From assembly GCA_023818645.1 (NCBI GenBank), contig JAMWCJ010000001.1:9584-73583 (forward strand): 64,000 nucleotides of DNA. Reading direction: 5' to 3'. Within the stretch, counting starts at the first letter, position 1. The number at the start of each line of letters is the position of its first letter. This document shows, one piece after another, positions 14,949 to 29,329 of the stretch. The notes beneath the pieces were generated by a model that saw only the letters and a list, made by a program, of their open reading frames with translations, ran no database searches and was not told the DNA's origin. Source of the DNA: Candidatus Omnitrophota bacterium (GTDB lineage Bacteria > Ratteibacteria > UBA8468 > B48-G9 > JAFGKM01). The position numbers were made by a program, and so were the translations under genes.

Positions 14949-15773
14949 ATGGAAGAATTGACAAGACTTAAAAATATTATTGTTTTTAAAGATGCAGAAA
15001 TAAAAAATCTTAAGAATGAAATTGAAAAACTTAAAAATATTATTTCTTTTTTTCCGGGAATTATTGTTATTCTTGATAAATATGGATTGATTGAATTTAT
15101 AAATAAAGAAGGGGTGGAAATCCTTCATTATTCGTCAGAAGAAGAATTAATAGGAAAAAATTGGTTTGATAAATGTATTCCTGAAAATATAAGAGACAGT
15201 TTAAAATTCGTTTTTAATAAAATTATAGAAGGACACATAGAAGAATCTAAGTATTATGAAAATTTAGTTGAGACAAAAATTAAAACATTGAAATTAATTG
15301 GATGGAGAAATTCATATATAAAAGATGAAAAAGGTAATATTTCAAAAACAATAAGTTATGGAATTGAAATTTCAAAAGAGAGTTTTGAGAAACAGAAGAT
15401 TGGTGATTATATAAAAATTTTTGATATTCTACCAGAAGCGATTCATATAATAGATAGAGAGTTTAAGATTCTTTTTTTCAATAAGGTTTTTGAGAAATGG
15501 AATAAAATTCTTGGATTTACTACCGATGTTATTGGGAAAAAACTTTTTGATATTTTTCCATTCCTCCCTGAAAAAGTGAAAGAAGAATATGAAAAAGTAT
15601 TTAACACTGGTGATATTTTGATAACAAAGGAAAAAAATTTTATTTCAGGTAAAGAGATTCTAACAGAAACAAGAAAAATACCAATTTTTGAAAAAGAAAA
15701 AGTAATTAATGTCATTACATTTATCAGAGAAATAGCAGATACCCTTAAAAATTATGAAGATAATATTTTGTGA
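14949..15773 (+). CDS. Stand-alone tandem PAS-domain protein (N-terminal coiled coil, no output domain)
   Basis: Two PAS-like folds are recognisable, each with a central ..G..L....N.. segment. There is no kinase, GGDEF or HTH domain. Confidence 0.55.
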   Translation: MEELTRLKNIIVFKDAEIKNLKNEIEKLKNIISFFPGIIVILDKYGLIEFINKEGVEILHYSSEEELIGKNWFDKCIPENIRDSLKFVFNKIIEGHIEESKYYENLVETKIKTLKLIGWRNSYIKDEKGNISKTISYGIEISKESFEKQKIGDYIKIFDILPEAIHIIDREFKILFFNKVFEKWNKILGFTTDVIGKKLFDIFPFLPEKVKEEYEKVFNTGDILITKEKNFISGKEILTETRKIPIFEKEKVINVITFIREIADTLKNYEDNIL

Positions 15774-16921
15774 ATTTTTTTTAGTTCTTTTCTAATTTCT
15801 ATTTTTTGTGGACATTTTTCTTCACACTGCCCACATTCAACACATGCATCTGCTTTTTTTCTTTCTTCTTTTCCTTCTGTTCCTATTTTTATATAATTTT
15901 CTTTATATTTTTTAGAACCCAATAGGATATATTGGTTATATAATTGAAAGATATATGGAATTGGAATATTTTGAGGACAGGGAAGACAATATCTACAAGA
16001 AGTACAGGGAATTTCTCCAAGTTTTTTTCTTTCCTTTATTATATTTTCTATAACTTTAATTTCTTCTTCATTTAAAAATTTCTCTGAACTTGCTATTTTT
16101 ACATTCTCTTCTACCATTTCTAAACTATTCATCCCTGAAAGGGCTATGGAGACATTTTTATTTGCAAAGACAAATTTAAAAGCAATTTCAACTGGATTCC
16201 TATATTTTTTTTTGAAAATATTCATTAAATAAGGAAAATCAGAAAGTCGTCCACCCCCAACCGGTCCCATAACCGCAACTCCGATTCCTTTTTTTGAAAC
16301 ATATTCAATACTTTCTTCATTGCTTCTATCAAGTATATTATATTGACATAAAATAGTTTCAAATATGTCAACCTGTTCTATAATTTTTTTCATATATTCT
16401 GGTTTATCATGAAAAGAAAAAGATATGTGCTTGATTATTCCTTCTTCTTTCGCTTTCAATGCTTCATCAATCAAATCTAATTTTAAAACTTTTTCCTGAA
16501 AACTTTGCCAGTTCAATGAATGAAAATGGTAAAAGTCAATATAATCAACATCAAGTTTCTTTAATTGTTCTTCAAGTATTCTTCTATAATCATCTTTTTT
16601 CTCTATTTGCCATAAAGGAGATTTAGTTGATAAATATATTTTATTCCTCCATCCTTTAATCGCTCTCCCCACAATAATTTCGCTTTTTTGTTCACAATAT
16701 CCATAAGCAGTATCAATATAATTTATACCAAGTTCAAACCCTCTTCTAATGATTTTTATTGATAATTCTTCGTCAATTGTTCTAACTCCATTTATTTCTT
16801 TTGTTGGCAATCTCATTGCTCCAAATCCAAGAATTGAAACATATTTTCCTGTTTTTCCAAATTTTCGGTAAAGCATCTTTTCCTCCATTTTTAAAATTTG
16901 TTGTGTGTAATAATAAGTCAA
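15752..16921 (-). CDS. Aldo/keto reductase fused to a C-terminal 4Fe-4S ferredoxin-like domain
   Basis: AKR N-terminus LYRKFGKTGKYVSILGFGAMRL. C-terminal cysteine clusters CTSCRYCLPCP and CVECGQCEEKCP. The true start is probably Met-12 or Met-16 of the ORF-track protein. Confidence 0.8.
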   Translation of the reverse strand: MTYYYTQQILKMEEKMLYRKFGKTGKYVSILGFGAMRLPTKEINGVRTIDEELSIKIIRRGFELGINYIDTAYGYCEQKSEIIVGRAIKGWRNKIYLSTKSPLWQIEKKDDYRRILEEQLKKLDVDYIDFYHFHSLNWQSFQEKVLKLDLIDEALKAKEEGIIKHISFSFHDKPEYMKKIIEQVDIFETILCQYNILDRSNEESIEYVSKKGIGVAVMGPVGGGRLSDFPYLMNIFKKKYRNPVEIAFKFVFANKNVSIALSGMNSLEMVEENVKIASSEKFLNEEEIKVIENIIKERKKLGEIPCTSCRYCLPCPQNIPIPYIFQLYNQYILLGSKKYKENYIKIGTEGKEERKKADACVECGQCEEKCPQKIEIRKELKKIHKILSS

Positions 16922-16947: not shown

Positions 16948-17583
16948 TTATTCTTTATAGAATCTCTCTATATATGAGACAACTTCTTCTGGTTGGTCAA
17001 AAACTTTAAAAATTTTTAAATCTTTTTTATCAATATATTTTCTTTTTAAAAGAACCTCTTTTAACCAATCAATAAATCCATCCCAGTAAGCCCTATCCAT
17101 AAGGACAACAGGAAATTTGTGAATTCTTTTTGTTTGTATAAGTGTTATTGCTTCTGTAAATTCATCAAGAGTCCCAAAGCCACCAGGAAATATAATGAAG
17201 CCCTTTGTATATTTAACAAACATAACTTTTCTTGTAAAAAAATATCTAAAAGAAATGAGAGTTTTTATATAGGGATTAGGTTTTTGTTCCATTGGTAATT
17301 CTATGTTAAGTCCTACAGATTCACCACCACCTAAAAGTGCTCCTTTGTTTGCTGCTTCCATAATTCCAGGACCACCACCAGTTATTATTGTATAACCTTT
17401 TTCAGCGAGTAATTTTGCCGTTATTACTGCCTTTTTATACCAGGGATTATTTTCTTTTATTCTTGCAGAACCCCATATAGTAATGGCTTTATTTATTTTT
17501 TCAAGTGTCTCAAAACCATCAACAAACTCTGCCATAATTCTAAAAATTCTCCATGATTCTTCTTCATATCTGTTCTTTTTCAT
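16948..17583 (-). CDS. LOG-family (TIGR00730) nucleotide 5'-monophosphate nucleosidase / lysine-decarboxylase-like protein
   Basis: TIITGGGPGIMEAANKGA and PGGFGTLDE motifs. Confidence 0.85.
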   Translation of the reverse strand: MKKNRYEEESWRIFRIMAEFVDGFETLEKINKAITIWGSARIKENNPWYKKAVITAKLLAEKGYTIITGGGPGIMEAANKGALLGGGESVGLNIELPMEQKPNPYIKTLISFRYFFTRKVMFVKYTKGFIIFPGGFGTLDEFTEAITLIQTKRIHKFPVVLMDRAYWDGFIDWLKEVLLKRKYIDKKDLKIFKVFDQPEEVVSYIERFYKE

Positions 17584-18859
17584 CTTTAATTTCCTCTACA
17601 ATTAAAACTAAACCTTTAATATCAATAACTTTTATTTTTCTATCTTTTTCAATCTTCCCTTTTAAACTTCTACCCTTCCAGTATTCTCCATGGACAAAAA
17701 CCATTCCTTCTGGATTTAATTCAGTTATAGTTTTCCCTTCTTCTCCAATTAATCCTTCTTTGCCAGTTATTACTTTTTTTCTTTTAGTTCTTAATGTAAA
17801 CCATATAATAAACCAGATAAATCCACCTGTTAAAATACTTGTCAAAATAATAGAGATAATTGGAATTTTAATTTCTGATGTTTTTTTGAATAACATTAAT
17901 GAACCAAGAATGAAAGTAATAATTCCAGAAGTAATAAAAATTCCAAAAGTTGGAGTCATTGCTTCTATTATAAAGAAAATAAAACTTAAGATAATTAGTA
18001 TTAAACCAGCCAAATTTATAGGCAATGTATGTAGCCCAAAGAAAGCAAGAATTAAAGCAATTGTTCCAACAATCCCTGGTATCCCAAAACCAGGATGAGA
18101 AAATTCAAGTATTATTCCCCATATTCCTAATATAAGCAAAAGATAAGCAATGTTGGGGTCAGATATAAATTTCAAAATTCTATCCTTAAATTCAGGTTTT
18201 GCTTCTTTAATTTTAACATTTTTCGTATTTAGCACTATTTCTTTCTCATTTATTTTAATTACTTTCCCATCTATTTTTTTAAGTAAATCATTTATATCTT
18301 TTGCTTTTAAGTCAATTACTTTTTCTTTAAGTGCTTCCTCTTCTGTAGACGAAAGACTTTCTTTAACAGCTTTTTCTGCCCATTTTTCATTTCTGCCTCT
18401 GTATTTTGCAATTGTTTTAATAAAACTTACAGTGTCATTTACAATCTTCTCTTCCATTTTACTGTCTTGTTCTCCACCTGTAAGGGTAACTGGATGAGCA
18501 GCACCTATATTTGTAGCAGGAGCCATCGCAAGAATATGACAGGATAAGGCAATAAATGTTCCAGCAGAAGCACATTGAGAACCGCTTGGGTAAACAAAGC
18601 CAACTATTGGAATTTCTGATGAAAGTATCTCCTGGACTATTTTTCTTGTTGAAGAAAGTAAACCACCGGGTGTATCTATTGTTATTAGAACAAAGTCAAC
18701 TTTATTTTTTTTTGCTAAAGATATAGTATTTTTAATCTGATAATAGGTCACAGGACCAATTGCTCCATCTATATTTAAAAGATATCCTTCATTACCTTTT
18801 AAAGAATTTTTAAAGATTAAAACATATAAAATGAAAATCAATATCTTTCTTTTTCTCAT
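17564..18859 (-). CDS. NfeD-like membrane-bound ClpP-class serine protease
   Basis: N-terminal ClpP-like domain (PSGSQCASAGTFIA), then multiple TM helices and a C-terminal OB-fold NfeD domain. The likely start is MRKRKILIF at 18859, abutting the upstream gene. The ORF-track start at 18922 would overlap by 67 nt. Confidence 0.8.
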   Translation of the reverse strand: MRKRKILIFILYVLIFKNSLKGNEGYLLNIDGAIGPVTYYQIKNTISLAKKNKVDFVLITIDTPGGLLSSTRKIVQEILSSEIPIVGFVYPSGSQCASAGTFIALSCHILAMAPATNIGAAHPVTLTGGEQDSKMEEKIVNDTVSFIKTIAKYRGRNEKWAEKAVKESLSSTEEEALKEKVIDLKAKDINDLLKKIDGKVIKINEKEIVLNTKNVKIKEAKPEFKDRILKFISDPNIAYLLLILGIWGIILEFSHPGFGIPGIVGTIALILAFFGLHTLPINLAGLILIILSFIFFIIEAMTPTFGIFITSGIITFILGSLMLFKKTSEIKIPIISIILTSILTGGFIWFIIWFTLRTKRKKVITGKEGLIGEEGKTITELNPEGMVFVHGEYWKGRSLKGKIEKDRKIKVIDIKGLVLIVEEIKDEKEQI

Positions 18860-19941
18860 TTTACAAATATATTGGGCCTTAAAAACTCTCCTTGTTCTGT
18901 TTCTATTTTTAATAAAGGCCAATTTCTATCCTCTGTTATGATAATCGGTTTTTCTTCAGTTGTGATAATTGTATCCTCTGATTTTGTTCCTGTTATTGAT
19001 GGATTCCAAGCAAATGCCTGATTTTCTGTTATAATTTCTTTTCGTTCTTTTGTTGCTCTGAAATATCTTGTCATATAACCTGTAGGTCCACCCTGATGAT
19101 GTTTCTTCCATTCATCGCCATATCCTGTCTTTTCATACATTTCAATTCCTTTAGAAAAAATTTCGCCTATCGTCCTTCCTTTACAAGTTGAACCTATAAA
19201 TACAGAATCAATTTTACAAACTGCAAGATGTTTTTTCTTTAATTCTTCAGGGAGTTTACCAAAATAGATAAGTCGGGATAAAGAAACTATTAAACCATAT
19301 TTCCTTGCACATAAAACCACCATAACAGATTTTTTTACTCTTTTTTCTTTTGGAACTGGGTGTCTATATCTTTTAATCCGTTCATCAGAAGCAATCAAAA
19401 CAACAACAGGAACTATATTTCTCTTCCATAAACTTTCACTTAATTTCCCACATATTTCTATTTCTTTATCCCCTGGTTTTATCTCTTTGCAGATATTAGT
19501 TACTATTTTTGATATTTCTCTTCCAATCTTTTTATATCTTTCAGTTTCTTCACGTAAAAGTGGAAAATGTAATTTCTCAATATTTAATGGAATATAATTA
19601 TCATAAAATATATCTGAACCAACCTTTGCGTTCGTAATTTCTTTTATCTTCTCATCAAATTTTTCCTCATACCAATTTTTAATGATTGGTTCAAAATTAA
19701 AATTCTTAAGTTCCTCATCAGAAATTCTGGGATATTCTATATTATTTGTAAGGTAAAAAATTTTCTTCTTTGTTACAAGTAATTTACAAACCCCTGTTTC
19801 TGTGTGAAGCCCAACATAATTTATCTTTCCACCTGTAAACCAGGCAAAATTACTAACTTTGTTCAATAAAACTCCTTCTAACTTCTCCTCATCTAATATT
19901 TTTTTTATTCTCTCCCATTTAATAAGTATTTCTTTTTCCAT
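18856..19941 (-). CDS. M24-family (creatinase/Xaa-Pro peptidase, pita-bread fold) protein, possibly with altered metal site
   Basis: N-terminal creatinase-like domain. The C-terminus HHQGGPTGY....AFAWNPSITG...EDTIITTEEKPIIIT parallels the M24 HGLGHGVG...FTIEPGIY...EDTVLVTEDG tail. The usual EPG glutamate ligand reads NPS here. Confidence 0.5.
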   Translation of the reverse strand: MEKEILIKWERIKKILDEEKLEGVLLNKVSNFAWFTGGKINYVGLHTETGVCKLLVTKKKIFYLTNNIEYPRISDEELKNFNFEPIIKNWYEEKFDEKIKEITNAKVGSDIFYDNYIPLNIEKLHFPLLREETERYKKIGREISKIVTNICKEIKPGDKEIEICGKLSESLWKRNIVPVVVLIASDERIKRYRHPVPKEKRVKKSVMVVLCARKYGLIVSLSRLIYFGKLPEELKKKHLAVCKIDSVFIGSTCKGRTIGEIFSKGIEMYEKTGYGDEWKKHHQGGPTGYMTRYFRATKERKEIITENQAFAWNPSITGTKSEDTIITTEEKPIIITEDRNWPLLKIETEQGEFLRPNIFVK

Positions 19942-20105: not shown

Positions 20106-22028
20106 TTAATAAGATTTATATTCAAGGATAGTTAAAGATTCTAAATGAGAAGTGTGAGGGAAAAAGTCAAACAAAAATATTTTTTTTATTGAATATCCAT
20201 TTCCTTTGAATTCTTTTAAGTCCCTTGCAAGGGTTGAAGGATTACAAGAAACATATATAATATTCGGAATCTTGTTTTTTGATATTTTGTTTATAATTTT
20301 TGAACTTAATCCATTCCTCGGTGGGTCAACTATTAAATAATCACAATCTACAAGAATTTCTTTTTTATTTAAAAACTTTTCAACTCTTTCAGCAAAGAAA
20401 ATACAATTGTTAATATAATTTTCTCTACAGTTTTCATTAGCAGTTTGAATATTTGCAATATCCCAGTCAACACCAATTACTTCTTTTGCTTTTTTTGAAA
20501 TAGATATTTCTATTGGCCCCGTTCCACAATATAAACCAATTATCTTACTTCCAGTATCAATATTCTCAAAAATTTTCTGATATAAAATTTCTGCAGATTT
20601 TGTATTTGGCTGGAAAAAAGTATTTGGATAAATTCTGAAAGATAAATTATTGATAATCTCTTCAATATAAGGTTGTCCATATAACAACTTTCCCCTTTCA
20701 TATGCCACAACATCTGCAATCTGATCATTTTCAACCCAATATATACTTTTTATCTCTTTAACTTGTTCTGTCAGTAAATCGACTAACTTACTTAAATCTA
20801 AATTAATCCCACTTTTTGTTACAATAATTACCATCATTTTATTATTATTTTTACTTTCCTTTACTACAAGATGTCTTAAAACACCTTTTTTTGTAAATGG
20901 ATCATAAGGTTGTAATTTTATAGAATTAAAAAAATCACTAACTATTGGAAAAATTTTTTCTACTTTTTTGCTAAAAATTAAACATCTTTTTAAAGGTACT
21001 ACTTCTTTTTTATATTTCTTATATGGTAAACTCCTTTCCCTCAATCCAACAACAATTCTGCTATTTTCAACTCCAAATGCAAATTCCATTTTATTTCTGT
21101 AAAAAAAGATTAAAGGAGATTGAAAAAAATTCTCCACTTTTATTTCCTGTTCAAATTGCCCAATTTTCTTCAAACAATTCAAAAAATATTCTTTTTTAAG
21201 TTCTAACTGCTTTTCATAAACTAAATTCTGAAAAGAACAGCCACCGCATAAACCAAAATGTTCACACTCTGGATTTATTCTAAAATCAGATTTCTTTTCA
21301 ATTTCTATAATCTCACCAAAAGAATAATTTTTTAACTCTTTAGAAACTTTAACTTTTAACCTGTCTCCAACGATCCCGCCTGGAACAAATATTACAAGAT
21401 TATTATATCTTCCTATTCCCCAATTATTTGGGAAAGCAAAATCGTAAATTTCAACAGATATTTCATTTGAAAGAAACCTATCAAGTAATTTCTTCAATTT
21501 TCCAGTAGGCAATCCCACAACATTATCAAAATTGCCATCAATTTCTTCAACAAAATTATCTTTCACATTCTGTATTGCATAAGCACCCGCCTTATCAAAA
21601 AAATTTTCTTTTTTCAAATATTCTTCTATTTCCTGCTCGCTTAATTTTTTAAATTTTACATAACTTATTTCATAATCAGTCAAAAGTTTCTCCTGGTCTT
21701 TTCTGTAAATTGCAATACCTGTTATAACTTTGTGTTTTGTTCCTGATAATCTTTTTAAAATTTGTTTTGCTTCTTCGTAATCCTTTGGTTTACCTATAAT
21801 TTCATCGTTTAAACTGACAATTGTATCTGCTCCTATGACAATTTTATCAGGATTTTCTTTTGCAATCGCTTCTGCCTTTCCAATGGCACAAAGAACTGCA
21901 TATTTTACAGGATCTTCCTCCTTTACACTCCTTTCATCAAAATTACTCTCAATTACGTCAAATCCTTTACATATTTTTTTAAACAATTCTTTCCTTCTCT
22001 CAGATTTTGTCGCAAGTATAATTTTCAT
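20106..22028 (-). CDS. Single-polypeptide fusion: Maf-family nucleoside-triphosphate pyrophosphatase (N-terminal) plus TRAM/RlmD(RumA)-type 23S rRNA m5U methyltransferase (C-terminal)
   Basis: Residues 1-190 are Maf (MKIILATKSERRKELF...IGADTIV...GKP.D.EEA...SG..H.V.TG). A TRAM-like barrel follows. Then the Fe-S Cys cluster CEHFGLCGGCSFQN, the SAM motif DPPRNG, and the catalytic VSCNPSTLARD. Confidence 0.8.
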   Translation of the reverse strand: MKIILATKSERRKELFKKICKGFDVIESNFDERSVKEEDPVKYAVLCAIGKAEAIAKENPDKIVIGADTIVSLNDEIIGKPKDYEEAKQILKRLSGTKHKVITGIAIYRKDQEKLLTDYEISYVKFKKLSEQEIEEYLKKENFFDKAGAYAIQNVKDNFVEEIDGNFDNVVGLPTGKLKKLLDRFLSNEISVEIYDFAFPNNWGIGRYNNLVIFVPGGIVGDRLKVKVSKELKNYSFGEIIEIEKKSDFRINPECEHFGLCGGCSFQNLVYEKQLELKKEYFLNCLKKIGQFEQEIKVENFFQSPLIFFYRNKMEFAFGVENSRIVVGLRERSLPYKKYKKEVVPLKRCLIFSKKVEKIFPIVSDFFNSIKLQPYDPFTKKGVLRHLVVKESKNNNKMMVIIVTKSGINLDLSKLVDLLTEQVKEIKSIYWVENDQIADVVAYERGKLLYGQPYIEEIINNLSFRIYPNTFFQPNTKSAEILYQKIFENIDTGSKIIGLYCGTGPIEISISKKAKEVIGVDWDIANIQTANENCRENYINNCIFFAERVEKFLNKKEILVDCDYLIVDPPRNGLSSKIINKISKNKIPNIIYVSCNPSTLARDLKEFKGNGYSIKKIFLFDFFPHTSHLESLTILEYKSY

Positions 22029-23164
22029 AAAAGCCCCTTTATTTTATGAATTCTGTTCCACCTTAAATAATCATAATAATTCCATCCAAAAAAACTATCT
22101 TCTTTATTACCTTGGGCAAGTTCTGTAATTCCACACTCTGCATTTTTACATTTAAGACAATCACCTTTACAAATAAATGGATAAAACTTATTACCTTTTC
22201 TGAAATAAATAGGTACATCTATTCCTTCACAATTATTGCTGCTCATAAATTCTTTATTTAAACCTATTATTTTACCATTTTTTTTCTCATATTCCATACA
22301 TAGCGCAAAGGAAATTTTAAATTTATCGCATATCTCCCTTAAAAATGAAAAAATATTTTTTCTGTAATTTATATGTGCATGCAACCACATTCCAATCTTC
22401 TCACAATAAAGATTTTCTATTTTTTGTCTTATTTTATGTCCGAACTCAAATTGGATATGGGTTAAAATATCACTCTTTATTGTAATTGGGATATCCATAA
22501 CGCTCGCAATAATATGTTTTGCTCCACTATCAACTGCTTTTTTAATCAGTAAAATCAAATCTTTTTTATTATCTGTGATAAATGGTATTATAGGGTCAAT
22601 TCTACAAACACAATGTATACCATTTTTAGACAAATTTTCAATATTTTTAAAAAGTTGTTTGGTCTTTGCTCCTTTTTTCATCAATCTTTGTCTTATCATT
22701 TCATAAGGTGTTAAAATTGTAATCTGACCAAAAGAATGGGGATTTACTTTTATTTTTTCTATTATATTATCTGGAATTTTCTCTTTTGTCACAAACTCAA
22801 TAGGAATATTTTTTTCAATAAATAGTTCAATTGTTTTTTCTGAAATATGATAAATATTTTCAAGTGACTGAAATGGCTCTGTTACAGGTGAAAGATAACC
22901 ACAGAAAGTAAGATTTATATTTTCAATCTGTTCTTTTAAATTTTCAACAAAATTTTCATAAACAAAAATGATTTTTTCTTTTCTTGCTCTTTGAAAATTA
23001 CCTGGATAACTTAAAGCATAACAGAAAAAACAACCAACTTCACAGCCAATATAAGGATTTAGAAGTATTCTTTCAGATACACATTCTCTTTTTCCTGGAT
23101 ACCAGTTATGTATTTTCTTTTCAGATTTAACCTTTATATGAGGTAGTATTTTGCTATTTAACAT
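22025..23164 (-). CDS. Radical-SAM protein of the SPL / DNA-repair-photolyase (SplB, COG1533-like) family
   Basis: NPYIGCEVGCFFCYA (CX3CX2C just after NPY, as in the SPL family). C-terminal Cys-rich CKGDCLKCKNAECG. Overlaps maf-rlmD by 4 nt. Confidence 0.6.
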   Translation of the reverse strand: MLNSKILPHIKVKSEKKIHNWYPGKRECVSERILLNPYIGCEVGCFFCYALSYPGNFQRARKEKIIFVYENFVENLKEQIENINLTFCGYLSPVTEPFQSLENIYHISEKTIELFIEKNIPIEFVTKEKIPDNIIEKIKVNPHSFGQITILTPYEMIRQRLMKKGAKTKQLFKNIENLSKNGIHCVCRIDPIIPFITDNKKDLILLIKKAVDSGAKHIIASVMDIPITIKSDILTHIQFEFGHKIRQKIENLYCEKIGMWLHAHINYRKNIFSFLREICDKFKISFALCMEYEKKNGKIIGLNKEFMSSNNCEGIDVPIYFRKGNKFYPFICKGDCLKCKNAECGITELAQGNKEDSFFGWNYYDYLRWNRIHKIKGLL

Positions 23165-23201
23165 TTTTGATTTTTAGTTCCTATTTGTATATAATTAAAA
23201 T

Positions 23202-24416
23202 ATGCAGTTACTATTAATTATAAACTTTGTCTTGATGTTAATTATTATACTACTTTTACTATTTAAAAGAGAAACAGATACAAAAGATATTATTTTAAAA
23301 CAGGATGAAATAAAGGAAAAAATACTTGGAATTTCTAAGGAATTGTCTGAAAATCTTTTAAATACAAGACATCTTTTAAATCAGGAAATAATAAATATCT
23401 TGAAGAATACAGAAATGTTAATACTTGACCAGGTAAATAAAACAATTTCTACCTTAGGAACAACAGATACAAACTTACAACAAAGAATGGAAAATTTAAG
23501 AACTCAATTACACCAGACATTAACAGATACTGTAAAAAATCTAACAAATTCTATAAATTCAGCCACAACTCACCTAACTTCAAATCTTGATACAAAACTT
23601 GAACAACTAAATAAAAGATTTGCTGATACTACTGGATTAATAACAGATCTAAATTTAAAAGTTGGCCAACTGAGTAAATCAGCAGAAGAGTTAAGAAAAT
23701 TAAATGAAGAACTTAAAACTGCTTTAACAAGTCCAAAACTTGGTGGAAATATAGGAGAACAAATACTTGAGAACATGTTGAAAAATATATTACCAAAAGA
23801 AGTATATAAATTGCAGTACTTTATATCTCCTGGAAATACAGTTGATGCTGCAATATTTATTGAGAACAAATTTATTCCAATTGATGCAAAATTTCCTGTT
23901 ATGTCTTATAAAAGAATGGTAAATTCAAAGGAAGAAGAGTATGAAAAAAACAAGCAGGAATTTATAAAAGTTGTGAAAGATCATATAGATAAAATTTCAA
24001 AATATATACAACCAGAAAGAGGATCATTTAATTTTGCCTTTATGTATATTCCAAGTGAACCAATTTTTTATAGTTTATTGATAAGTGAAGATAAAGACGG
24101 AACTTCAATTTTCAACTATTCATGGTCTGAAAAAAGAGTTTTACCTGTTTCCCCTCAGAGTTTATTCGCATATTTAAATATAATTCTGCTTGGTTTAAAA
24201 GGTAAAATTATAGAAAAAAATGCTGAATATATACTTAAAGCATTTGAAGGAATGGGTAAAATTTTTGATAACTTAAGAGATTCTTTTGAAAAATCATTTA
24301 AACAGTTGAAATATACAAGTTCAAACTTTGAGGATGCGAAAAATCTACTTGATAAATTTGAATCAGAGTTCAGAAATTTACAAAAAATTAAAATTGAAAA
24401 ATTAGAAGAAAAATAA
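23202..24416 (+). CDS. rmuC: DNA recombination protein RmuC
   Basis: N-terminal TM helix, long coiled coil, and a C-terminal nuclease-like domain with FMYIPSE. Immediately upstream of mutS. Confidence 0.6.
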   Translation: MQLLLIINFVLMLIIILLLLFKRETDTKDIILKQDEIKEKILGISKELSENLLNTRHLLNQEIINILKNTEMLILDQVNKTISTLGTTDTNLQQRMENLRTQLHQTLTDTVKNLTNSINSATTHLTSNLDTKLEQLNKRFADTTGLITDLNLKVGQLSKSAEELRKLNEELKTALTSPKLGGNIGEQILENMLKNILPKEVYKLQYFISPGNTVDAAIFIENKFIPIDAKFPVMSYKRMVNSKEEEYEKNKQEFIKVVKDHIDKISKYIQPERGSFNFAFMYIPSEPIFYSLLISEDKDGTSIFNYSWSEKRVLPVSPQSLFAYLNIILLGLKGKIIEKNAEYILKAFEGMGKIFDNLRDSFEKSFKQLKYTSSNFEDAKNLLDKFESEFRNLQKIKIEKLEEK

Positions 24417-24425
24417 ACTGAAAAA

Positions 24426-27005
24426 ATGGAAAATTATACACCAATGCTTAACCAATATCATAGTATAAAAAAAAATTATCCTAATTGCCTTTTATTTTTT
24501 CGCCTTGGTGACTTCTATGAGATGTTTTATGAAGATGCTAAAATCGCTTCAAAAATCCTTGACCTTGTTCTAACTTCAAAACCCGCTGGAAAAAGCGGGA
24601 AAATCCCTATGTGCGGTATACCATATCATGCTGCAGACAATTATATTTCAAAATTGATAAAAAATGGATATAAAGTTGCAATATGTGAGCAGGTTGAAGA
24701 CCCAAAAAAAGTAAAAGGGATTGTAAAAAGAGATGTAGTAAGGGTTTTGACGGCAGGAACATATATTGACGAAACAAATCCTGATGCAAAGTACCTTTTT
24801 TCATTATATTTAGATGATAATAATTTTGGTTATTCTTTTATAGAAAGTGGTGGATGCGTGATATATGCAAATCAAAGTGATGACAAAATAAAAATAATTG
24901 AGATTATCCATAAATTACCAGTTTATGAAATTATTTATCCATCGGATAAAAAAGAAAAAATAAATGAATTGTTTTCAAATCCTCTTTTAAAACTCAAAAA
25001 TGTAACTCTCACCGAAATTGATGACTGGCGCTTTAATTATGAAATCTCAAGAAAAAATATTCTTGAAACTTTTAAAATTAATAGTTTAAGTGGTTTTGGT
25101 ATTGAAAATCTTCAATATTCTCAAATGTCAATAGGTCCATTAATTGATTATTTAAAAGAAACAAATAAAAGTGAACTTTTCCATATTGACAGGATTTCAT
25201 TATATAAAAGCGATGAATTTGTCTATATTTCGCCTTCTGCCTTAAAAGGACTTGAAATTGAACAACTTATAAAAATTATTGATAAAACTGACACACCACT
25301 TGGAAAAAGGCTTTTAAAATACTGGGTTTTGCATCCTTTAACAGATATAAAAGAGATAGAAAAACGATTAAATATTGTTGAATATTTTATAAAAAACAAG
25401 GAATTAAAAGAAAAATTGAAAAAAATTCTTTCAGATATAAAAGATACGGAAAAATCACTAACAAAAATAAGTTATGGCTATGGTTCTGTAAAGGATATCA
25501 TAGAGATAAAAAAACTTGCAAATAAAGTAGAAAAAATTATTGAGTTTTCAGGAGAAATTTTTGAAAAATTTGATTATTTTGAGATTGAGGATATTCCTGA
25601 TTTGAGAGATTTACTTAATCAGGCAATTGATGAAAATATACCATCTGTTAACTTTGAAGGGAAGATTATAAAAAAGGGATTTAATCAGGAAATTGATAGA
25701 TTGAGGGAAATAAAGGAAAATAGTGAAAATTATTTGGCAAAGTATCAAAAAGAGGAAATTGAAAGAACAGGAATAAGTTCTTTAAAAATTGGTTTTAATA
25801 AAGTTTTTGGATATTACATTGAAATTACAAAGGCAAATTTAAAACTTGTTCCGCCTGATTATATAAGAAAACAAACGCTTGTGAATGCTGAAAGATTTAC
25901 GACTGCAAAATTAAAAGAATTTGAACAGGAGATCTTATCAGCAGAAGAGAAAATAATAAGTATTGAAAATGAAATATTGGAGAAAATAAAGCAGGAAATA
26001 TTGAAAAACTCACATAAAATAAATTTGATAAATGAAACTATTGCAAAATTAGATGTCTTACTATCTTTTTCTGAACTTGCAATTGAAAATAATTACATAA
26101 AACCAATTGTTGATAAAAGCACAACAATTGAAATAAAACAAGGAAGACATCCAATAGTAGAAAAGTTTACAGAAAATTTTATTCCAAATGATACACTGAT
26201 AGATACTTTAGAAAATTATCTTTTAATTATAACAGGTCCAAATATGGCTGGAAAATCAACATATATAAGACAGGTTGCTTTAATAGTTTTACTTGCTCAA
26301 ATCGGTTGTTTTATACCTGCAAAATATGGAAGAATTGGTTATGTTGATAAAATCTTTACAAGAATTGGAGCACAGGATGAATTAATAAAAGGTTATAGTA
26401 CTTTTATGGTAGAAATGCTTGAAACAGCAGAGATATTGAATAATTTAACTGAAAGAAGTTTAATAGTTATAGATGAAATAGGTAGAGGAACAAGCACATA
26501 TGATGGTTTTTCTCTTGCATGGAGTGTTGCAGAATATTTACAAAGAAAGAAAGTAAGAACACTTTTTGCTACTCATTTTCATGAAATAACTGCGCTCGGG
26601 AAATATAAAGGAGTGAAAAATTATAATGTAGTAGTAAAGAAATATGGAGATGAAATAATCTTTCTTCATAAAATTATGGAAGGTGCAACAGATGAAAGTT
26701 ATGGAATTTATGTTGCTAAACTTGCAGGGATCCCTGAAAATGTTCTAAAAAGAGCAAATGAAATTCTTACAAAACTTGAACTTGAAGGGACTATAAAAGA
26801 TAAAATTATTGGAGAAATTGAAATTGAACATCCATCCCTTTTTTCTTTTGAAGAAAAAAGTAAGATTGAAGAATTGAAGAATGAAATTAAAAATCTTGAA
26901 ACAATAAAAAATGAAATTAAAAATCTTGAAATTGACACGCTCACACCTATTGCCGCTCTTCTAAAACTTAAAGAACTTAAAGAAAAAATAAATGGGAAAA
27001 GTTAA
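24426..27005 (+). CDS. mutS: DNA mismatch repair protein MutS
   Basis: Walker A GPNMAGKSTYIRQ and DEIGRGTSTYDG. The N-terminal mismatch-binding domain includes FYE.F (GDFYEMF). Confidence 0.95.
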   Translation: MENYTPMLNQYHSIKKNYPNCLLFFRLGDFYEMFYEDAKIASKILDLVLTSKPAGKSGKIPMCGIPYHAADNYISKLIKNGYKVAICEQVEDPKKVKGIVKRDVVRVLTAGTYIDETNPDAKYLFSLYLDDNNFGYSFIESGGCVIYANQSDDKIKIIEIIHKLPVYEIIYPSDKKEKINELFSNPLLKLKNVTLTEIDDWRFNYEISRKNILETFKINSLSGFGIENLQYSQMSIGPLIDYLKETNKSELFHIDRISLYKSDEFVYISPSALKGLEIEQLIKIIDKTDTPLGKRLLKYWVLHPLTDIKEIEKRLNIVEYFIKNKELKEKLKKILSDIKDTEKSLTKISYGYGSVKDIIEIKKLANKVEKIIEFSGEIFEKFDYFEIEDIPDLRDLLNQAIDENIPSVNFEGKIIKKGFNQEIDRLREIKENSENYLAKYQKEEIERTGISSLKIGFNKVFGYYIEITKANLKLVPPDYIRKQTLVNAERFTTAKLKEFEQEILSAEEKIISIENEILEKIKQEILKNSHKINLINETIAKLDVLLSFSELAIENNYIKPIVDKSTTIEIKQGRHPIVEKFTENFIPNDTLIDTLENYLLIITGPNMAGKSTYIRQVALIVLLAQIGCFIPAKYGRIGYVDKIFTRIGAQDELIKGYSTFMVEMLETAEILNNLTERSLIVIDEIGRGTSTYDGFSLAWSVAEYLQRKKVRTLFATHFHEITALGKYKGVKNYNVVVKKYGDEIIFLHKIMEGATDESYGIYVAKLAGIPENVLKRANEILTKLELEGTIKDKIIGEIEIEHPSLFSFEEKSKIEELKNEIKNLETIKNEIKNLEIDTLTPIAALLKLKELKEKINGKS

Positions 27006-28698
27006 TTTTTTACCTGAAGAAGTTATAAGTAAAATAGCAGGTGGTGAAGTAATAGAGAGTCCTGCATCTGTTTTAAAAGAACTTATTGAAAATTCAATTG
27101 ATGCAAATAGTAAAAAAATTGAAATTAAAATAGAAAATTCAGGTAAAAAACTTATATATGTTAAAGATGATGGAGAAGGAATAGAAGCAGATGATATAGA
27201 AAAAATATTTGGAAGATATTCTACAAGTAAAATAAGAACAAAAGAAGACCTTTATAATATAAGAACACTTGGATTTCGCGGAGAAGCACTTTATAGTATT
27301 GGTGCTGTTGCTGATGTAATTTTAAAAAGTAAAACAAAAAATAGTGATATTGGAAAAGAGATTCATATAAGGGGTGGAAAAAAATTAAGTATAAAAGAAT
27401 GTGCTATGCATGATGGAACAATTTTAGAGGTAAGAGAATTATTTTTTAATATACCAGCAAGAAGAAAATTTTTAAAATCAGATATTACTGAATTTAGAAA
27501 AGTTTTTAATATTTTTATTCAATATGCAATAGGTTTTCCAGAGATAAATTTTATATTTGAAAATGAAAACAAAACAATTTTAAATCTAATCCCATCTGAA
27601 AATTATTTAAAAAGATTTTGCGAGATTTTAAACCTAAACGAAGACTATTTGATATACAGACAAAAAAAAATTGAAAATATTGACCTTGAAATAATTATAG
27701 GTGATATTAATTTAAAAAGGCCACAAAAAAATATGCAGTTTATTTTTGTAAATAGAAGACCTGTGTATAATTATATCCTTTCTTCAGCAATAAATAATTT
27801 TTACCAATCATTTTTTTCATCTGAATTCTTTCCTGTATTTGCTGTTTATTTACAAATTGCAAATCAAAATATAGATGTGAATATACATCCTACAAAGAGA
27901 GAAGTAAAAATTAAAGATGAAGATCGGATAGCAAAGAAAATTATTGATATAATTAATGAAATTTTGAAAGAAGGAAAAATCAAAAAAATTGAAGCGGAGA
28001 GGAAATATTTAGGACAGAAAGAAAAAGTAAGAATAAATGAAAAAATAAAAGAAGAAAATAATTTAATCTTTCAAACTAAAAAAACAGAAGAAAAAGAAAT
28101 CTATGAATTATTTAAGGAGGAGAAAATAAAAGTAATTTTAAGAGAAAAATTAAAAAGGAGTTGTTTTATTGGAGTTTTTAAATCTAAATATTTAATTTTT
28201 GAATCAGATGATTCTCTATTAATAGTTGACCAGCATGCAGTGATGGAAAGAATTAACTATGAAATCTTTATTAATCAGATTGAAAAAGGAAAAATTCAGA
28301 TACAGCAGATTTTAACTCCAATTATTATTGAACTTAATTATGAAGAAATGATAATCTGGGAGAAAACAGCGAAAATTTTAGAAAGATTTGGGTTCCTTAC
28401 AACAAGATGGAGTGAAAATAAAATAGCAATACATGGATACCCTTCATTGATAAAGGATATAGAGTTTGCAATAAGAAATATTTTAGATGAAAAAGACATA
28501 AAAAAATATGATAAAGAAGAGGTTTCAAAAAGAGCATGTAGAGTTTCAATTATGGCAGGAGAAAAAATTACAGACAAAGAGGCAAAATATTTAATTGAGA
28601 AATTGGCAAAGTGTAAAAATCCTTTCGTTTGTCCCCATGGAAGACCAATAATAATAGAGTTAACAGAGAATTTTCTTGATAGACAGTTTTTAAGATAG
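26992..28698 (+). CDS. mutL: DNA mismatch repair protein MutL
   Basis: GHKL ATPase N-terminus LPEEVISKIAGGEVIESPASVLKELIENSIDA. Overlaps the mutS stop. Confidence 0.9.
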   Translation: MGKVNFLPEEVISKIAGGEVIESPASVLKELIENSIDANSKKIEIKIENSGKKLIYVKDDGEGIEADDIEKIFGRYSTSKIRTKEDLYNIRTLGFRGEALYSIGAVADVILKSKTKNSDIGKEIHIRGGKKLSIKECAMHDGTILEVRELFFNIPARRKFLKSDITEFRKVFNIFIQYAIGFPEINFIFENENKTILNLIPSENYLKRFCEILNLNEDYLIYRQKKIENIDLEIIIGDINLKRPQKNMQFIFVNRRPVYNYILSSAINNFYQSFFSSEFFPVFAVYLQIANQNIDVNIHPTKREVKIKDEDRIAKKIIDIINEILKEGKIKKIEAERKYLGQKEKVRINEKIKEENNLIFQTKKTEEKEIYELFKEEKIKVILREKLKRSCFIGVFKSKYLIFESDDSLLIVDQHAVMERINYEIFINQIEKGKIQIQQILTPIIIELNYEEMIIWEKTAKILERFGFLTTRWSENKIAIHGYPSLIKDIEFAIRNILDEKDIKKYDKEEVSKRACRVSIMAGEKITDKEAKYLIEKLAKCKNPFVCPHGRPIIIELTENFLDRQFLR

Positions 28699-28702
28699 AT
28701 TT

Positions 28703-29329
28703 TTATTTAAAAACAAATCCTGTCTCTTTTGCCCATAAAAGCAAATCAAGTTCAGATGGTTTAATATTAATTTTTTTTGAAAATTCAATAAATTTTTTTT
28801 CAATTTCAAGATATTTTTTTTGAGACAATCTCTCTGGAATCTCTTCTATAATATTATACATTTTTAAATTTTTTAAAATATGCCTATCAAGAATTGCAAT
28901 ATTATCTCCAAGGCCTATATTTCTTAAAAAGTGACTTGTCTCTTTCATCCCAAAGCCCTTTATTTTTTTAACAAGAAATTTTCTAAGAGCATGGATATCT
29001 TTGGTATTTTTTATATAATCTTTTAAATTTTCTCGAAAAAATTCTTTTCTTGCCTCAATTATATAGTTTGCTTTCTTCTTGTTAAATCTAATTTTTTTCA
29101 AATTTTCAGCAATCTGTTTTTCTGTCCCATAAAAAAGTAAATTTTGATTTATTAACATCTCTATTGTTTGCCAGCAAATTTCTGCTTTTGTTTGTGGAGT
29201 TAAAAGACAGAAACATAATTCAGCAAAAATTTCTTTATCATCCTTTTTTTCGCTAAATTCTTTCAATCTATTTCTAATTTCAAACTTAAATTTTTTATAA
29301 ACTTCTTTAAGTTCTTTTATATTTTCCAT
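28703..29329 (-). CDS. ogg: 8-oxoguanine DNA glycosylase/AP lyase, short Ogg2-type (HhH-GPD)
   Basis: 208 aa. Helix-hairpin-helix GFGMKETSHFLRNIG followed by ILDRH (Asp of the GPD motif). Confidence 0.7.
   Translation of the reverse strand: MENIKELKEVYKKFKFEIRNRLKEFSEKKDDKEIFAELCFCLLTPQTKAEICWQTIEMLINQNLLFYGTEKQIAENLKKIRFNKKKANYIIEARKEFFRENLKDYIKNTKDIHALRKFLVKKIKGFGMKETSHFLRNIGLGDNIAILDRHILKNLKMYNIIEEIPERLSQKKYLEIEKKFIEFSKKINIKPSELDLLLWAKETGFVFK

What the first reader, a model, noticed from the sequence alone, without database searches (positions are those of the whole stretch)
20106..23164. Maf pyrophosphatase fused in-frame to an m5U rRNA methyltransferase, coupled to an SPL-type radical-SAM gene
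A single 640-aa ORF joins a complete Maf domain to a complete TRAM plus RlmD/RumA-type methyltransferase. The methyltransferase carries the Fe-S Cys cluster, DPPRNG and the VSCNP nucleophile. Maf/YhdE proteins are reported to hydrolyse dTTP/UTP and modified nucleotides including m5UTP. RlmD makes m5U in 23S rRNA. The fusion therefore physically links the writer of a modified base to an enzyme proposed to destroy its free triphosphate form, a possible house-cleaning couple. The gene overlaps by 4 nt an upstream radical-SAM protein of the spore-photoproduct-lyase/DNA-repair-photolyase family. The pair is divergently arranged from rmuC-mutS-mutL, making a nucleic-acid quality-control neighbourhood. 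I do not recall this fusion being described.
Basis: partly seen in the sequence, partly recalled or inferred. Interest (0 to 1): 0.7.

Follow-up and report, generated by a model that had tools for sequence, protein, structure and literature searches.

The report
Recurrent Maf–m5U RNA methyltransferase fusion
The 640-aa gene is a genuine fusion of a nucleotide-cleaning enzyme (Maf) to an RNA uracil-5 methyltransferase; the same pairing has arisen at least twice in bacteria, which suggests Maf clears the free methyl-uridine nucleotides that such methyltransferases ultimately generate.

Summary
ORF 20106-22028(-) encodes a complete YhdE-type Maf (aa 1-186) joined without a linker to a complete TRAM plus Fe-S RumA/RlmD-family m5U RNA methyltransferase.

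It is not a frameshift artefact. At least 120 protein clusters from independent assemblies share the architecture, down to 35-43% identity. The junction length is fixed, and the catalytic residues of both halves are 95-100% conserved.

A second, independent fusion in the opposite order (TRAM-MTase-Maf) forms a family of similar size in Chloroflexota, also with both active sites intact. Coriobacteriia keep separate rlmD-like and maf genes in one conserved same-strand cluster. This convergence supports a functional link between the m5U writer and the m5UTP-preferring pyrophosphatase, but the biochemistry is untested.

- The radical-SAM partner and the rmuC-mutS-mutL neighbourhood occur only in the closest relatives (3 of 11 fusion loci).
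- SPL membership of the radical-SAM protein is not shown.
- The methylation site (U1939, U747 or tRNA U54) is undetermined.

Public databases label these proteins simply "RlmD" or "Maf". I found no paper describing the fusion. The nearest precedent is the eukaryotic ASMTL Maf-methyltransferase fusion.

The parts
20106..22028 (-). maf::rumA-family fusion gene (640 aa plus stop codon)
   Evidence: ORF. Domain matches. Identical to NCBI MCM8784657.1.
21471..22028 (-). Maf domain (aa 1-186), YhdE subfamily nucleoside-triphosphate pyrophosphatase
   Evidence: PF02545 at 186 bits, full length. Signature residues S9, R12, E32, K51, D68, K80 and subfamily residues R11, T69, Q153 are 97-100% conserved in 120 homologues, using the motif definitions in PMC3899018. 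The model matches B. subtilis Maf 4heb with TM 0.88 and 42% identity.
21429..21476 (-). Domain junction (aa 185-200), with no linker
   Evidence: In the AF2 model, helix 175-186 runs directly into strand 189-198 with pLDDT 82-89. The F185-to-P200 distance is 15 residues in 112 of 120 homologues.
21306..21464 (-). TRAM RNA-binding domain (aa 189-241)
   Evidence: PF01938 at 29.9 bits against a cutoff of 21.
20109..21305 (-). Fe-S central domain plus SAM-dependent uracil-C5 methyltransferase catalytic domain (aa 242-640)
   Evidence: TIGR00479 at 311 bits. C255, C261, C264, C349, Q473, DPPRxG 568-573, C595 and E630 are invariant. Foldseek gives RlmCD 5xj2 TM 0.93 and RumA 1uwv/2bh2 TM 0.88-0.90.
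22025..23164 (-). Upstream radical-SAM gene (379 aa), probably translationally coupled. It is a lineage-specific partner, not part of the conserved unit.
   Evidence: PF04055 at 37.4 bits against a cutoff of 29.5. CxxxCxxC at C41/C45/C48 is conserved in 3 orthologues. phrog_9252 'DNA repair photolyase' at 129 bits. Present only in the window, L084 and L085.
22025..22028 (-). ATGA stop/start overlap between the rSAM gene and the fusion gene
   Evidence: Sequence read. The same overlap occurs in L084 and L085.
23202..29329 (.). Context only: divergent rmuC-mutS-mutL (+) followed by ogg (-)
   Evidence: Pfam. The synteny is kept only in L084 and L085; rmuC alone is kept in L086.

Best explanation
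The gene encodes one bifunctional polypeptide.

N-terminal half. This is a catalytically competent YhdE-type Maf nucleoside-triphosphate pyrophosphatase (NTP to NMP plus PPi). Characterised members prefer m5UTP, and also accept pseudo-UTP, m5CTP, dTTP, UTP and CTP.

C-terminal half. This is a RumA/RlmD-family RNA methyltransferase containing a [4Fe-4S] cluster. It uses SAM, the nucleophile C595 and the base E630 to make 5-methyluridine in rRNA or tRNA. The exact site is undetermined.

Proposed logic (inferred, not shown). When m5U-containing RNA is degraded, m5U nucleotides are released. They can be re-phosphorylated to m5UTP and mis-incorporated at random by RNA polymerase. Fusing the writer to the m5UTP-preferring pyrophosphatase guarantees that the two are inherited and expressed together in equal amounts. 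No substrate channelling is implied, because the methyltransferase product is a polymer, not a free nucleotide.

The radical-SAM gene upstream is a local operon partner in the Ratteibacteria-like subclade only.

Confidence by part: about 0.9 that this is a real, active two-enzyme fusion; about 0.45 that m5U-nucleotide sanitation is the selective reason for it.
For: - Both domains match their profiles end to end and above curated cutoffs.
- All Maf signature and YhdE-subfamily residues, and all RumA Fe-S and catalytic residues, are 95-100% conserved in 120 type-A proteins.
- The AF2 model is confident (pLDDT 89.9, pTM 0.75) and has no linker. Fold matches go to RlmCD, RumA and B. subtilis Maf.
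- The junction length is fixed.
- An independent reverse-order family (TRAM-MTase-Maf) accounts for 116 of 119 listed relatives of P0158, mostly Chloroflexota/Dehalococcoidia, including contigs of 2-3.5 Mb. It retains the same residues.
- The type-B MTase half belongs to a different RumA-family branch: at most 34% identity to type A, whereas stand-alone MTases reach 51%. Type B forms an exclusive clade in 200 of 200 bootstraps.
- Coriobacteriia keep rlmD-like, DJ-1/PfpI and maf as separate genes on one strand.
- Published biochemistry: m5UTP gives the lowest KM and the highest kcat/KM for YhdE-type Maf proteins (PMC3899018).
- Published physiology: 5mU from RNA turnover is converted to 5mUTP and mis-incorporated into mRNA in Arabidopsis nsh1 mutants (PMC10415118).
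Against: - No activity has been measured for this protein or for any member of the fusion families.
- Fusion gives no kinetic advantage to a writer/sanitiser pair, so co-regulation alone could explain it.
- Maf proteins and m5U are both nearly universal, yet they are unlinked in most genomes. None of the 43 MTase-only and 25 Maf-only loci I examined had the partner within about 8 kb.
- Most bacteria with a single Maf carry the YhdE type, so finding that subtype here discriminates only weakly.
- In E. coli, the detected in-vivo substrates of YhdE were dTTP and UTP; modified NTPs were below the detection limit (PMC3899018).
- Type A is not an exclusive clade in the MTase tree (0 of 200 bootstraps), so fissions or several fusions must have occurred, and the linkage is evidently dispensable.
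Confidence: 0.5

Rival explanations
1. Co-regulation only. Maf and the rRNA/tRNA methyltransferase were neighbours in ancestral growth-related operons and fused by loss of a stop codon. Each half does its ordinary job: general pyrimidine-NTP control for Maf, and ribosome or tRNA maturation for the MTase. There is no m5U-specific relationship.
For: - Fusion offers no channelling benefit.
- Stand-alone MTases interleave with type-A fusions in the tree, so the linkage is easily lost.
- Most genomes keep the two genes apart.
- The in-vivo E. coli data point to dTTP and UTP as YhdE substrates (PMC3899018).
Against: - The same two families were joined at least twice, in opposite orders and from different MTase branches. 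They are also clustered as separate genes in Coriobacteriia. That is more than expected for unrelated housekeeping genes.
- Apart from one NUDIX singleton, I saw no comparable fusion of this MTase to other housekeeping enzymes among 507 retrieved relatives.
Confidence: 0.3
2. The Maf domain serves the methyltransferase in cis, for example as a dimerisation module or as a nucleotide-sensing or uridine-binding regulatory domain, and its hydrolytic activity is secondary.
For: - The type-A junction is rigid and linker-free, and pTM 0.75 suggests a defined arrangement between the domains.
- YhdE works as a dimer, according to the title and abstract of PMC4529217.
Against: - Every catalytic and substrate-binding Maf residue, including the general base D68, is conserved at 97-100% in type A, and D is present in 118 of 118 type-B proteins. 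That argues for retained catalysis.
- Type B joins the domains through a variable linker of 18-47 residues and in the opposite order. This is hard to reconcile with a specific inter-domain mechanism.
Confidence: 0.08
3. The rSAM gene, the fusion and the divergent rmuC-mutS-mutL-ogg cluster form one nucleic-acid quality-control module.
For: - The 4-nt ATGA overlap with an SD-like sequence suggests translational coupling.
- The whole block is conserved at 86% and 65% protein identity.
- The rSAM matches a PHROG family labelled 'DNA repair photolyase'.
Against: - The rSAM is absent from 8 of 11 fusion loci, and mutS/mutL/ogg are also absent from 8 of 11.
- Type-B loci instead sit between thioredoxin and tatA-tatC genes.
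- The rSAM has no demonstrable SPL membership.
- The shared synteny is explained by the close relatedness of the three genomes.
Confidence: 0.1
4. Assembly or frameshift artefact that joins separate maf and rlmD genes.
For: None found.
Against: - At least 120 clusters from NCBI, JGI, ENA and Logan assemblies share the architecture.
- The junction is in register in all 11 loci examined at the DNA level.
- The junction region is predicted as a continuous structure.
Confidence: 0.01

Closest known systems
YhdE-subfamily Maf proteins (E. coli YhdE, B. subtilis Maf BSU28050; PMC3899018)
   Same: Full-length Maf fold. The S-R-E-K-D-K signature and the R-T-Q subfamily motif are present. 42% identity to B. 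subtilis Maf, with the model matching at TM 0.88.
   Different: It is not a stand-alone 190-aa protein. It is fused without a linker to an RNA methyltransferase. Its activity is untested.
RumA/RlmD, RlmCD and archaeal RumA-like m5U methyltransferases (PDB 1uwv/2bh2, 5xj1/5xj2, 2jjq, 8z62)
   Same: TRAM, central and Rossmann-fold architecture. Catalytic Cys, Glu and the DPPR motif are present. It has a four-Cys Fe-S site like RumA and P. abyssi PAB0719. TM 0.86-0.93.
   Different: It carries an N-terminal Maf domain. The strict RlmD equivalog model is not met. The best sequence and fold matches are enzymes with different targets (tRNA U54; U747 plus U1939), so the site cannot be assigned. Unlike RlmCD, it keeps the Fe-S cysteines (alignment).
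Eukaryotic ASMTL (N-terminal YhdE-like Maf fused to a methyltransferase domain)
   Same: An N-terminal YhdE-type Maf covalently fused to a SAM-dependent methyltransferase. Tchigvintsev et al. already suggested a functional relationship between Maf proteins and methyltransferases.
   Different: The ASMTL methyltransferase is ASMT-like (small-molecule O-methyltransferase class) and was still functionally unassigned in 2024 (PMC11514484). Here the partner is an RNA uracil-C5 methyltransferase whose product base is the Maf domain's best known substrate, so the link is chemically specific.
Reverse-order TRAM-MTase-Maf proteins of Chloroflexota/Dehalococcoidia
   Same: The same two enzyme types, both with intact active sites.
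   Different: Opposite domain order, a variable linker of 18-47 aa, a different RumA-family branch, and a different genomic context (thioredoxin, tatA-tatC).

Membership tests
Maf (PF02545 / TIGR00172) | Full-length profile match above the curated cutoff | tested here: met
   PF02545 at 186 bits (cutoff 27), covering profile positions 1-186 of 187. TIGR00172 at 173.8 bits (cutoff 117.15).
Maf (PF02545 / TIGR00172) | S-R-E-K-D-K signature, including the catalytic Asp (PMC3899018) | tested here: met
   S9, R12, E32, K51, D68 and K80 are present and 97-100% conserved in 120 homologues.
YhdE subfamily of Maf | R-T-Q motif (as opposed to W-Q-E in YceF) | tested here: met
   R11, T69 and Q153 are 97-100% conserved. 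Type B has R in 117, T/S in 118 and Q in 118 of 118 proteins.
YhdE subfamily of Maf | Pyrophosphatase activity on m5UTP, pseudo-UTP, dTTP and UTP | not testable with these tools
   Requires an enzyme assay.
RumA/RlmD family m5U RNA methyltransferase (TIGR00479) | TRAM, central and MTase domains matched above cutoff | tested here: met
   TIGR00479 at 311 bits against a cutoff of 183.55, aa 204-630. TRAM PF01938 at 29.9 bits against a cutoff of 21.
RumA/RlmD family m5U RNA methyltransferase (TIGR00479) | Four-Cys [4Fe-4S] site, nucleophilic Cys, general-base Glu, DPPR SAM/uracil motif | tested here: met
   C255, C261, C264, C349, C595, E630 and D568-R571 are invariant. The residue roles are assigned from established knowledge of RumA and by alignment to RumA-family chains in the PDB.
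RlmD sensu stricto (23S rRNA U1939) | Match to the strict equivalog model, or evidence of site specificity | tested here: not met
   NF009639 at 226 bits against a cutoff of 458. PDB scores are 183 for the tRNA-U54 enzyme 2jjq, 180 for RlmCD, 173 for the U747 enzyme 8z62, and 132 for E. coli RumA. The site is unresolved.
Spore-photoproduct lyase (SPL), for the upstream rSAM | Radical-SAM CxxxCxxC core | tested here: met
   C41-x3-C45-x2-C48 is conserved in 3 orthologues. PF04055 at 37.4 bits against a cutoff of 29.5.
Spore-photoproduct lyase (SPL), for the upstream rSAM | Specific similarity to bona fide SPL (an SPL model or a solved SPL structure) | tested here: not met
   No SPL model appears among the NCBIfam hits. 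The best is the PA0069 family at 71 bits against a cutoff of 360. No PDB hit with the single sequence or with a 3-sequence profile at E<=1 or E<=10. The only support is phrog_9252, labelled 'DNA repair photolyase', at 129 bits. The fold test failed because the single-sequence model had pLDDT 33.7.
ASMTL-type Maf-methyltransferase fusion | N-terminal YhdE-like Maf fused to a methyltransferase | tested here: met
   (the ASMTL Maf domain 2p5x scores 92.6 bits).
ASMTL-type Maf-methyltransferase fusion | C-terminal domain of the ASMT/O-methyltransferase class | tested here: not met
   The C-terminal half is RumA-type. The resemblance is therefore analogous, not homologous.

The most novel reading that the evidence does not exclude
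The convergent fusions (Maf-MTase, MTase-Maf, and possibly a third origin), together with the Coriobacteriia gene cluster, are Rosetta-stone evidence about what YhdE-type Maf proteins are for. On this reading, their physiological job across all life is to clear the m5U nucleotides released by turnover of methylated RNA. Each cell that writes m5U would then need a dedicated sanitiser for the free triphosphate. That would settle the long-open question of Maf function, and would suggest by analogy what the orphan methyltransferase domain of human ASMTL relates to.
Probability: 0.3. Interest if true: 0.7.

Novelty: new variant of a known kind. Interest (0 to 1): 0.5.

Why it matters
Maf proteins are nearly universal, yet their physiological substrate remains debated. 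Candidates include cell-division arrest through dTTP/UTP depletion and house-cleaning of modified NTPs.

A protein that covalently joins the m5UTP-preferring Maf subtype to an enzyme that writes m5U is a natural experiment pointing at m5U nucleotides as the relevant substrate, especially because evolution built it at least twice, in both orders. It also provides compact, single-polypeptide systems in which to test that idea.

The finding exposes a systematic annotation gap as well. Hundreds of bifunctional proteins are named only 'RlmD' or only 'Maf', so the other activity is missed in metabolic reconstructions of Omnitrophota, Margulisbacteria/Saganbacteria, Aminicenantes and Chloroflexota.

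Tried and rejected
1. Frameshift or misassembly: rejected because the fusion recurs.
2. rSAM and DNA-repair genes as part of a conserved module: rejected as a family-wide property, since they occur in 3 of 11 loci.
3. SPL identity of the rSAM. Sequence and profile searches against the PDB found nothing. PADLOC found nothing. The single-sequence AF2 model was unusable at pLDDT 33.7, so no fold search was run.
4. NUDIX-TRAM-MTase (P0236) as convergent support. It is a singleton on one 12.8-kb contig. None of its 119 listed relatives has a NUDIX domain, and its closest relative has no nudix gene upstream. I did not use it as evidence.
The taxon statements therefore rest on source-given names and are incomplete. 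Because loci were ranked by similarity to the whole fusion, no enrichment statistic for maf-rlmD adjacency can be derived from them.
6. The promoter/terminator scan was uninformative: 21 promoter-like sites against 22.1 expected by chance, and no terminator-like site.
7. The first bootstrap attempts failed with a KeyError and then a time-out. I redid them with numpy distances. These are NJ trees with Kimura distances, and deep nodes are weakly resolved.
Its D70/T71/Q153 numbering agrees with PMC3899018, and the domain matches real PDB Maf chains.


Full report
**1. The observation**

The ORF list shows a 640-aa ORF at 20106..22028 on the minus strand and a 379-aa ORF at 22025..23164 on the same strand. 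The two overlap by 4 nt. The sequence reads AAGGGGCTTTTATGAAA, so the upstream stop codon TGA overlaps the downstream ATG, and an SD-like AAGGGG lies 5 nt before that ATG. This arrangement is typical of translational coupling.

Pfam places three domains in the 640-aa protein:
- a complete Maf domain at aa 2-184 (profile positions 1-186 of 187, 186 bits);
- a TRAM domain at aa 189-241;
- the tRNA_U5-meth_tr catalytic domain at aa 444-636.

NCBIfam gives TIGR00479 (rumA) over aa 204-630 at 311 bits (cutoff 183.55) and TIGR00172 (maf) at 174 bits (cutoff 117).

The neighbours are confirmed by Pfam. RmuC (23202-24416), MutS (24426-27005) and MutL (26992-28698) lie on the plus strand, divergent from the pair. 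An Ogg glycosylase gene follows on the minus strand (28703-29329).

**2. Not an artefact**

The identical protein is deposited as MCM8784657.1, from a 'Candidatus Omnitrophica/Omnitrophota' MAG. PGAP names it simply RlmD. The closest relative, at 86% identity, is labelled Ca. Ratteibacteria.

All 120 best hits in the 5.8-billion-protein collection are 601-673 aa long and carry both PF02545 and PF05958. Identity goes down to 43%. They come from NCBI, JGI, ENA and Logan assemblies, and source names include Omnitrophica, Ratteibacteria, Margulisiibacteriota, Saganbacteria/WOR-1, Aminicenantes/Saccharicenans and 'Acidobacteria'.

An exhaustive HMMER scan of 1.84 billion 50%-identity representatives adds full-length members down to 35% identity.

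At the DNA level, in 11 fusion loci the Maf segment ends and the MTase segment begins at the same position.

**3. Both halves look active**

Tchigvintsev et al. (PMC3899018) define three motifs: the Maf signature S-R-E-K-D-K, the YhdE-subfamily motif R-T-Q, and the YceF motif W-Q-E.

In the window protein these correspond to S9, R12, E32, K51, D68 and K80 for the signature, and R11, T69 and Q153 for the YhdE motif. All are 97-100% conserved across the 120 homologues.

In the MTase half, the following are invariant or nearly so:
- the four Fe-S cysteines;
- Q473;
- the DPPRxG motif;
- the nucleophile C595;
- the general base E630.

An AlphaFold2 model built from a 20-sequence alignment is confident, with mean pLDDT 89.9 and pTM 0.75. 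It shows the last Maf helix (175-186) running straight into the first TRAM strand (189-198), with no disordered linker.

Foldseek matches for the model:

| Part of model | PDB match | TM-score |
|---|---|---|
| MTase | S. pneumoniae RlmCD | 0.93 |
| MTase | E. coli RumA | 0.88-0.90 |
| MTase | P. horikoshii U747 enzyme | 0.87 |
| MTase | P. abyssi tRNA-U54 enzyme | 0.86-0.87 |
| Maf | B. subtilis Maf (42% identity) | 0.88 |

No solved chain covers both parts.

The distance between the conserved F185 and P200 is 15 residues in 112 of 120 proteins.

**4. What cannot be assigned**

The methylation site is open. The strict RlmD equivalog model NF009639 scores 226 bits against a cutoff of 458. By sequence, the best solved relatives are:

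| Enzyme | Target | Bits |
|---|---|---|
| P. abyssi PAB0719 (2jjq) | tRNA U54 | 183 |
| S. pneumoniae RlmCD | U747 and U1939 | 180 |
| 8z62 | U747 | 173 |
| E. coli RumA | U1939 | 132 |

'RlmD' should therefore be read as 'RumA-family m5U RNA methyltransferase'.

**5. The surroundings are lineage-specific**

The block ogg-mutL-mutS-rmuC, divergent from rSAM and the fusion, is conserved in relatives at 86% and 65% identity (L084 and L085). It includes the same 4-nt overlap.

At 55% identity (L086), only rmuC remains next to the fusion.

Seven more distant loci have neither the rSAM nor the repair genes. These are L001 (WOR-1), L003 (Saccharicenans), L004, L005, L087 (Margulisiibacteriota), L088 and L089.

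The rSAM coupling and the 'quality-control neighbourhood' are therefore shared synteny among close relatives. They are not a property of the fusion.

The rSAM itself:
- It has the CxxxCxxC motif and passes the Pfam Radical_SAM cutoff.
- PGAP calls it a hypothetical protein.
- Its NCBIfam hits (PA0069 family at 71 bits against a cutoff of 360, and Rv2578c family) are far below cutoff.
- It matches nothing in the PDB, even as a profile, and nothing in PADLOC.
- It does match a PHROG family labelled 'DNA repair photolyase' (129 bits). That supports membership of the broad, uncharacterised group that carries this name, but not of bona fide spore-photoproduct lyases.

**6. New evidence: the same pairing arose again**

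Among the representatives, P0158 and P0252 carry the domains in the opposite order, TRAM-MTase-Maf. A homologue search with P0158 shows that this is a large family:
- 116 of the 119 other listed clusters have both domains.
- Sources name them 'RlmD' or 'Maf family nucleotide pyrophosphatase'.
- They come from Chloroflexi/Dehalococcoidia, including contigs of 2-3.5 Mb.

Two of these loci sit between a thioredoxin gene and tatA-tatC.

This type-B family retains the same residues:
- YhdE-type Maf residues: R in 117, T or S in 118, Q in 118 and the catalytic D in 118 of 118 proteins;
- the RumA Fe-S cysteines, nucleophile and base: each in 118 of 118.

Its linker is variable, at 18-47 residues.

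The type-A MTase half is far closer to stand-alone MTases (up to 51% identity, 409 bits) than to type-B MTase halves (at most 34%, 176 bits). In a neighbour-joining tree, type B is an exclusive clade in 200 of 200 bootstraps. The two orders are therefore independent fusions, drawn from different branches of the RumA family.

Within type A, stand-alone MTases interleave with the fusions (0 of 200 bootstraps for exclusivity). In the Maf tree:
- the 15 'core' type-A Maf halves form one clade (100 of 200);
- P0130, P0131 and P0133 fall elsewhere, in both trees, and have different junction lengths.

The simplest reading is one old fusion with later fissions, plus possibly a third independent fusion. 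The trees are too weakly resolved to be sure.

Separately, Coriobacteriia keep an rlmD-like gene, a DJ-1/PfpI gene and maf as separate genes on one strand. The loci come from Collinsella, Eggerthellaceae, Ca. Coprousia and an unclassified Coriobacteriales genome.

**7. Mechanism**

Inferred with high confidence from sequence conservation, though not assayed: a two-enzyme polypeptide with an active-looking YhdE-type Maf and an active-looking Fe-S RumA-type m5U methyltransferase.

Established elsewhere:
- YhdE-type Maf proteins hydrolyse dTTP, UTP and CTP, and prefer m5UTP, which gives the lowest KM and the highest kcat/KM (PMC3899018).
- In Arabidopsis nsh1 mutants, 5mU released by RNA turnover is phosphorylated to 5mUTP and appears in mRNA. 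Human RNA polymerase II uses 5mUTP almost as well as UTP in vitro (PMC10415118).

Inferred: the fusion ties the writer of m5U to the enzyme that removes the free triphosphate, so the two are inherited and expressed together. Channelling is not expected.

Arguments against:
- Most genomes keep the two genes apart.
- The linkage has evidently been lost repeatedly.
- In E. coli, only dTTP and UTP changes were detectable in vivo.

I put about 0.9 on 'real, bifunctional, both halves active' and about 0.45 on 'm5U-nucleotide sanitation is the reason'. The main rival, at about 0.3, is neutral or co-regulatory fusion of growth-related housekeeping genes.

**8. Relation to what is known**

Both domains are textbook families. 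[quoted passage not shown]

The ASMTL methyltransferase is ASMT-like and was still unassigned in 2024 (PMC11514484).

Six full-text searches found no description of a bacterial Maf-RumA/RlmD fusion. The library does not hold most subscription journals, so absence is not proof.

I therefore rate this as a new variant of a known kind: an undescribed but database-abundant architecture, whose convergent origins add real evidence to an open question.

**9. Verdict**

Interest is 0.5. This is not a new kind of system. It is a clean, recurrent Rosetta-stone link that makes the physiological role of Maf proteins directly testable, and it reveals a widespread annotation gap.

Noticed in passing
P0158 family; loci L092:5001-6905 and L093:5001-6845: Reverse-order TRAM-MTase-Maf fusion family in Chloroflexota/Dehalococcoidia, with at least 116 clusters. 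Both active sites are intact. In the two loci examined it is flanked by a divergent thioredoxin gene and by tatA-tatC downstream, with 4-nt overlaps. Sources name it inconsistently as 'RlmD' or 'Maf'.
   Followed up: yes
P0130, P0131, P0133 (representative search): Maf-MTase proteins at 35-37% identity. They fall outside the core type-A clade in both the Maf tree and the MTase tree, and their junction lengths differ. They may be a third independent fusion.
   Followed up: partly
L046:7908-10556 (Collinsella aerofaciens); also L047-L050, L055, L056, L058, L075: Coriobacteriia keep an rlmD-like gene, a DJ-1/PfpI gene and maf on the same strand as separate genes. This linkage of the two enzymes is independent of any fusion.
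   Followed up: partly
L090:4001-5770 (P0236): A single NUDIX-TRAM-m5U-MTase protein (589 aa) on one 12.8-kb Logan contig from a Chlamydiae-like organism, with a UDG gene nearby at L090:1170-1823. None of its 119 listed relatives has a NUDIX domain, and its closest relative has no nudix gene upstream. It could be a rare analogous fusion or an artefact.
   Followed up: yes
window 20109-21470 (MTase half): The MTase half scores 344 bits, over nearly its full length, against phrog_11787, which is labelled 'DNA methyltransferase'. RumA-like uracil-C5 methyltransferases therefore also occur in phage genomes, under a probably misleading name.
   Followed up: no
L003:5411-6004 and L003:8621-9808 (Ca. 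Saccharicenans): In this Aminicenantes locus a phosphoribosyltransferase-domain gene overlaps the start of the fusion by 4 nt, in place of the rSAM. A TruD pseudouridine synthase gene lies just downstream.
   Followed up: no
L086:7978-8451; L088:4194-4694; L003:9830-10504: Isoprenoid genes recur near the fusion in three distant loci: ispF (YgbB) in L086 and L088, and ispD in L003. M23 peptidase genes recur in L087 and L088. This is probably residual synteny and remains unexplained.
   Followed up: no
window 23165-23201: Only 37 bp separate the divergent starts of the rSAM gene and rmuC. A TTGATT-17-TATAAT match at 23167-23195 ends 7 nt before the rmuC ATG, which would imply a near-leaderless transcript. 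Such matches are at chance frequency in this AT-rich DNA.
   Followed up: partly
window 13024-14145 (-): A 373-aa ORF with no Pfam match at E<=1e-4. Its neighbours are a double-PAS protein (14949-15773), an aldo/keto reductase with a 4Fe-4S dicluster tail (15752-16921), a LOG/'lysine decarboxylase'-family protein (16948-17583) and an NfeD membrane protein (17564-18922).
   Followed up: no
window 18856-19941 (-): The gene downstream of the fusion, after a 164-nt gap, is an M24/creatinase-type peptidase homologue with weak Pfam scores (27 and 26 bits). It was not found in any of the other fusion loci, so it is not part of the unit.
   Followed up: partly
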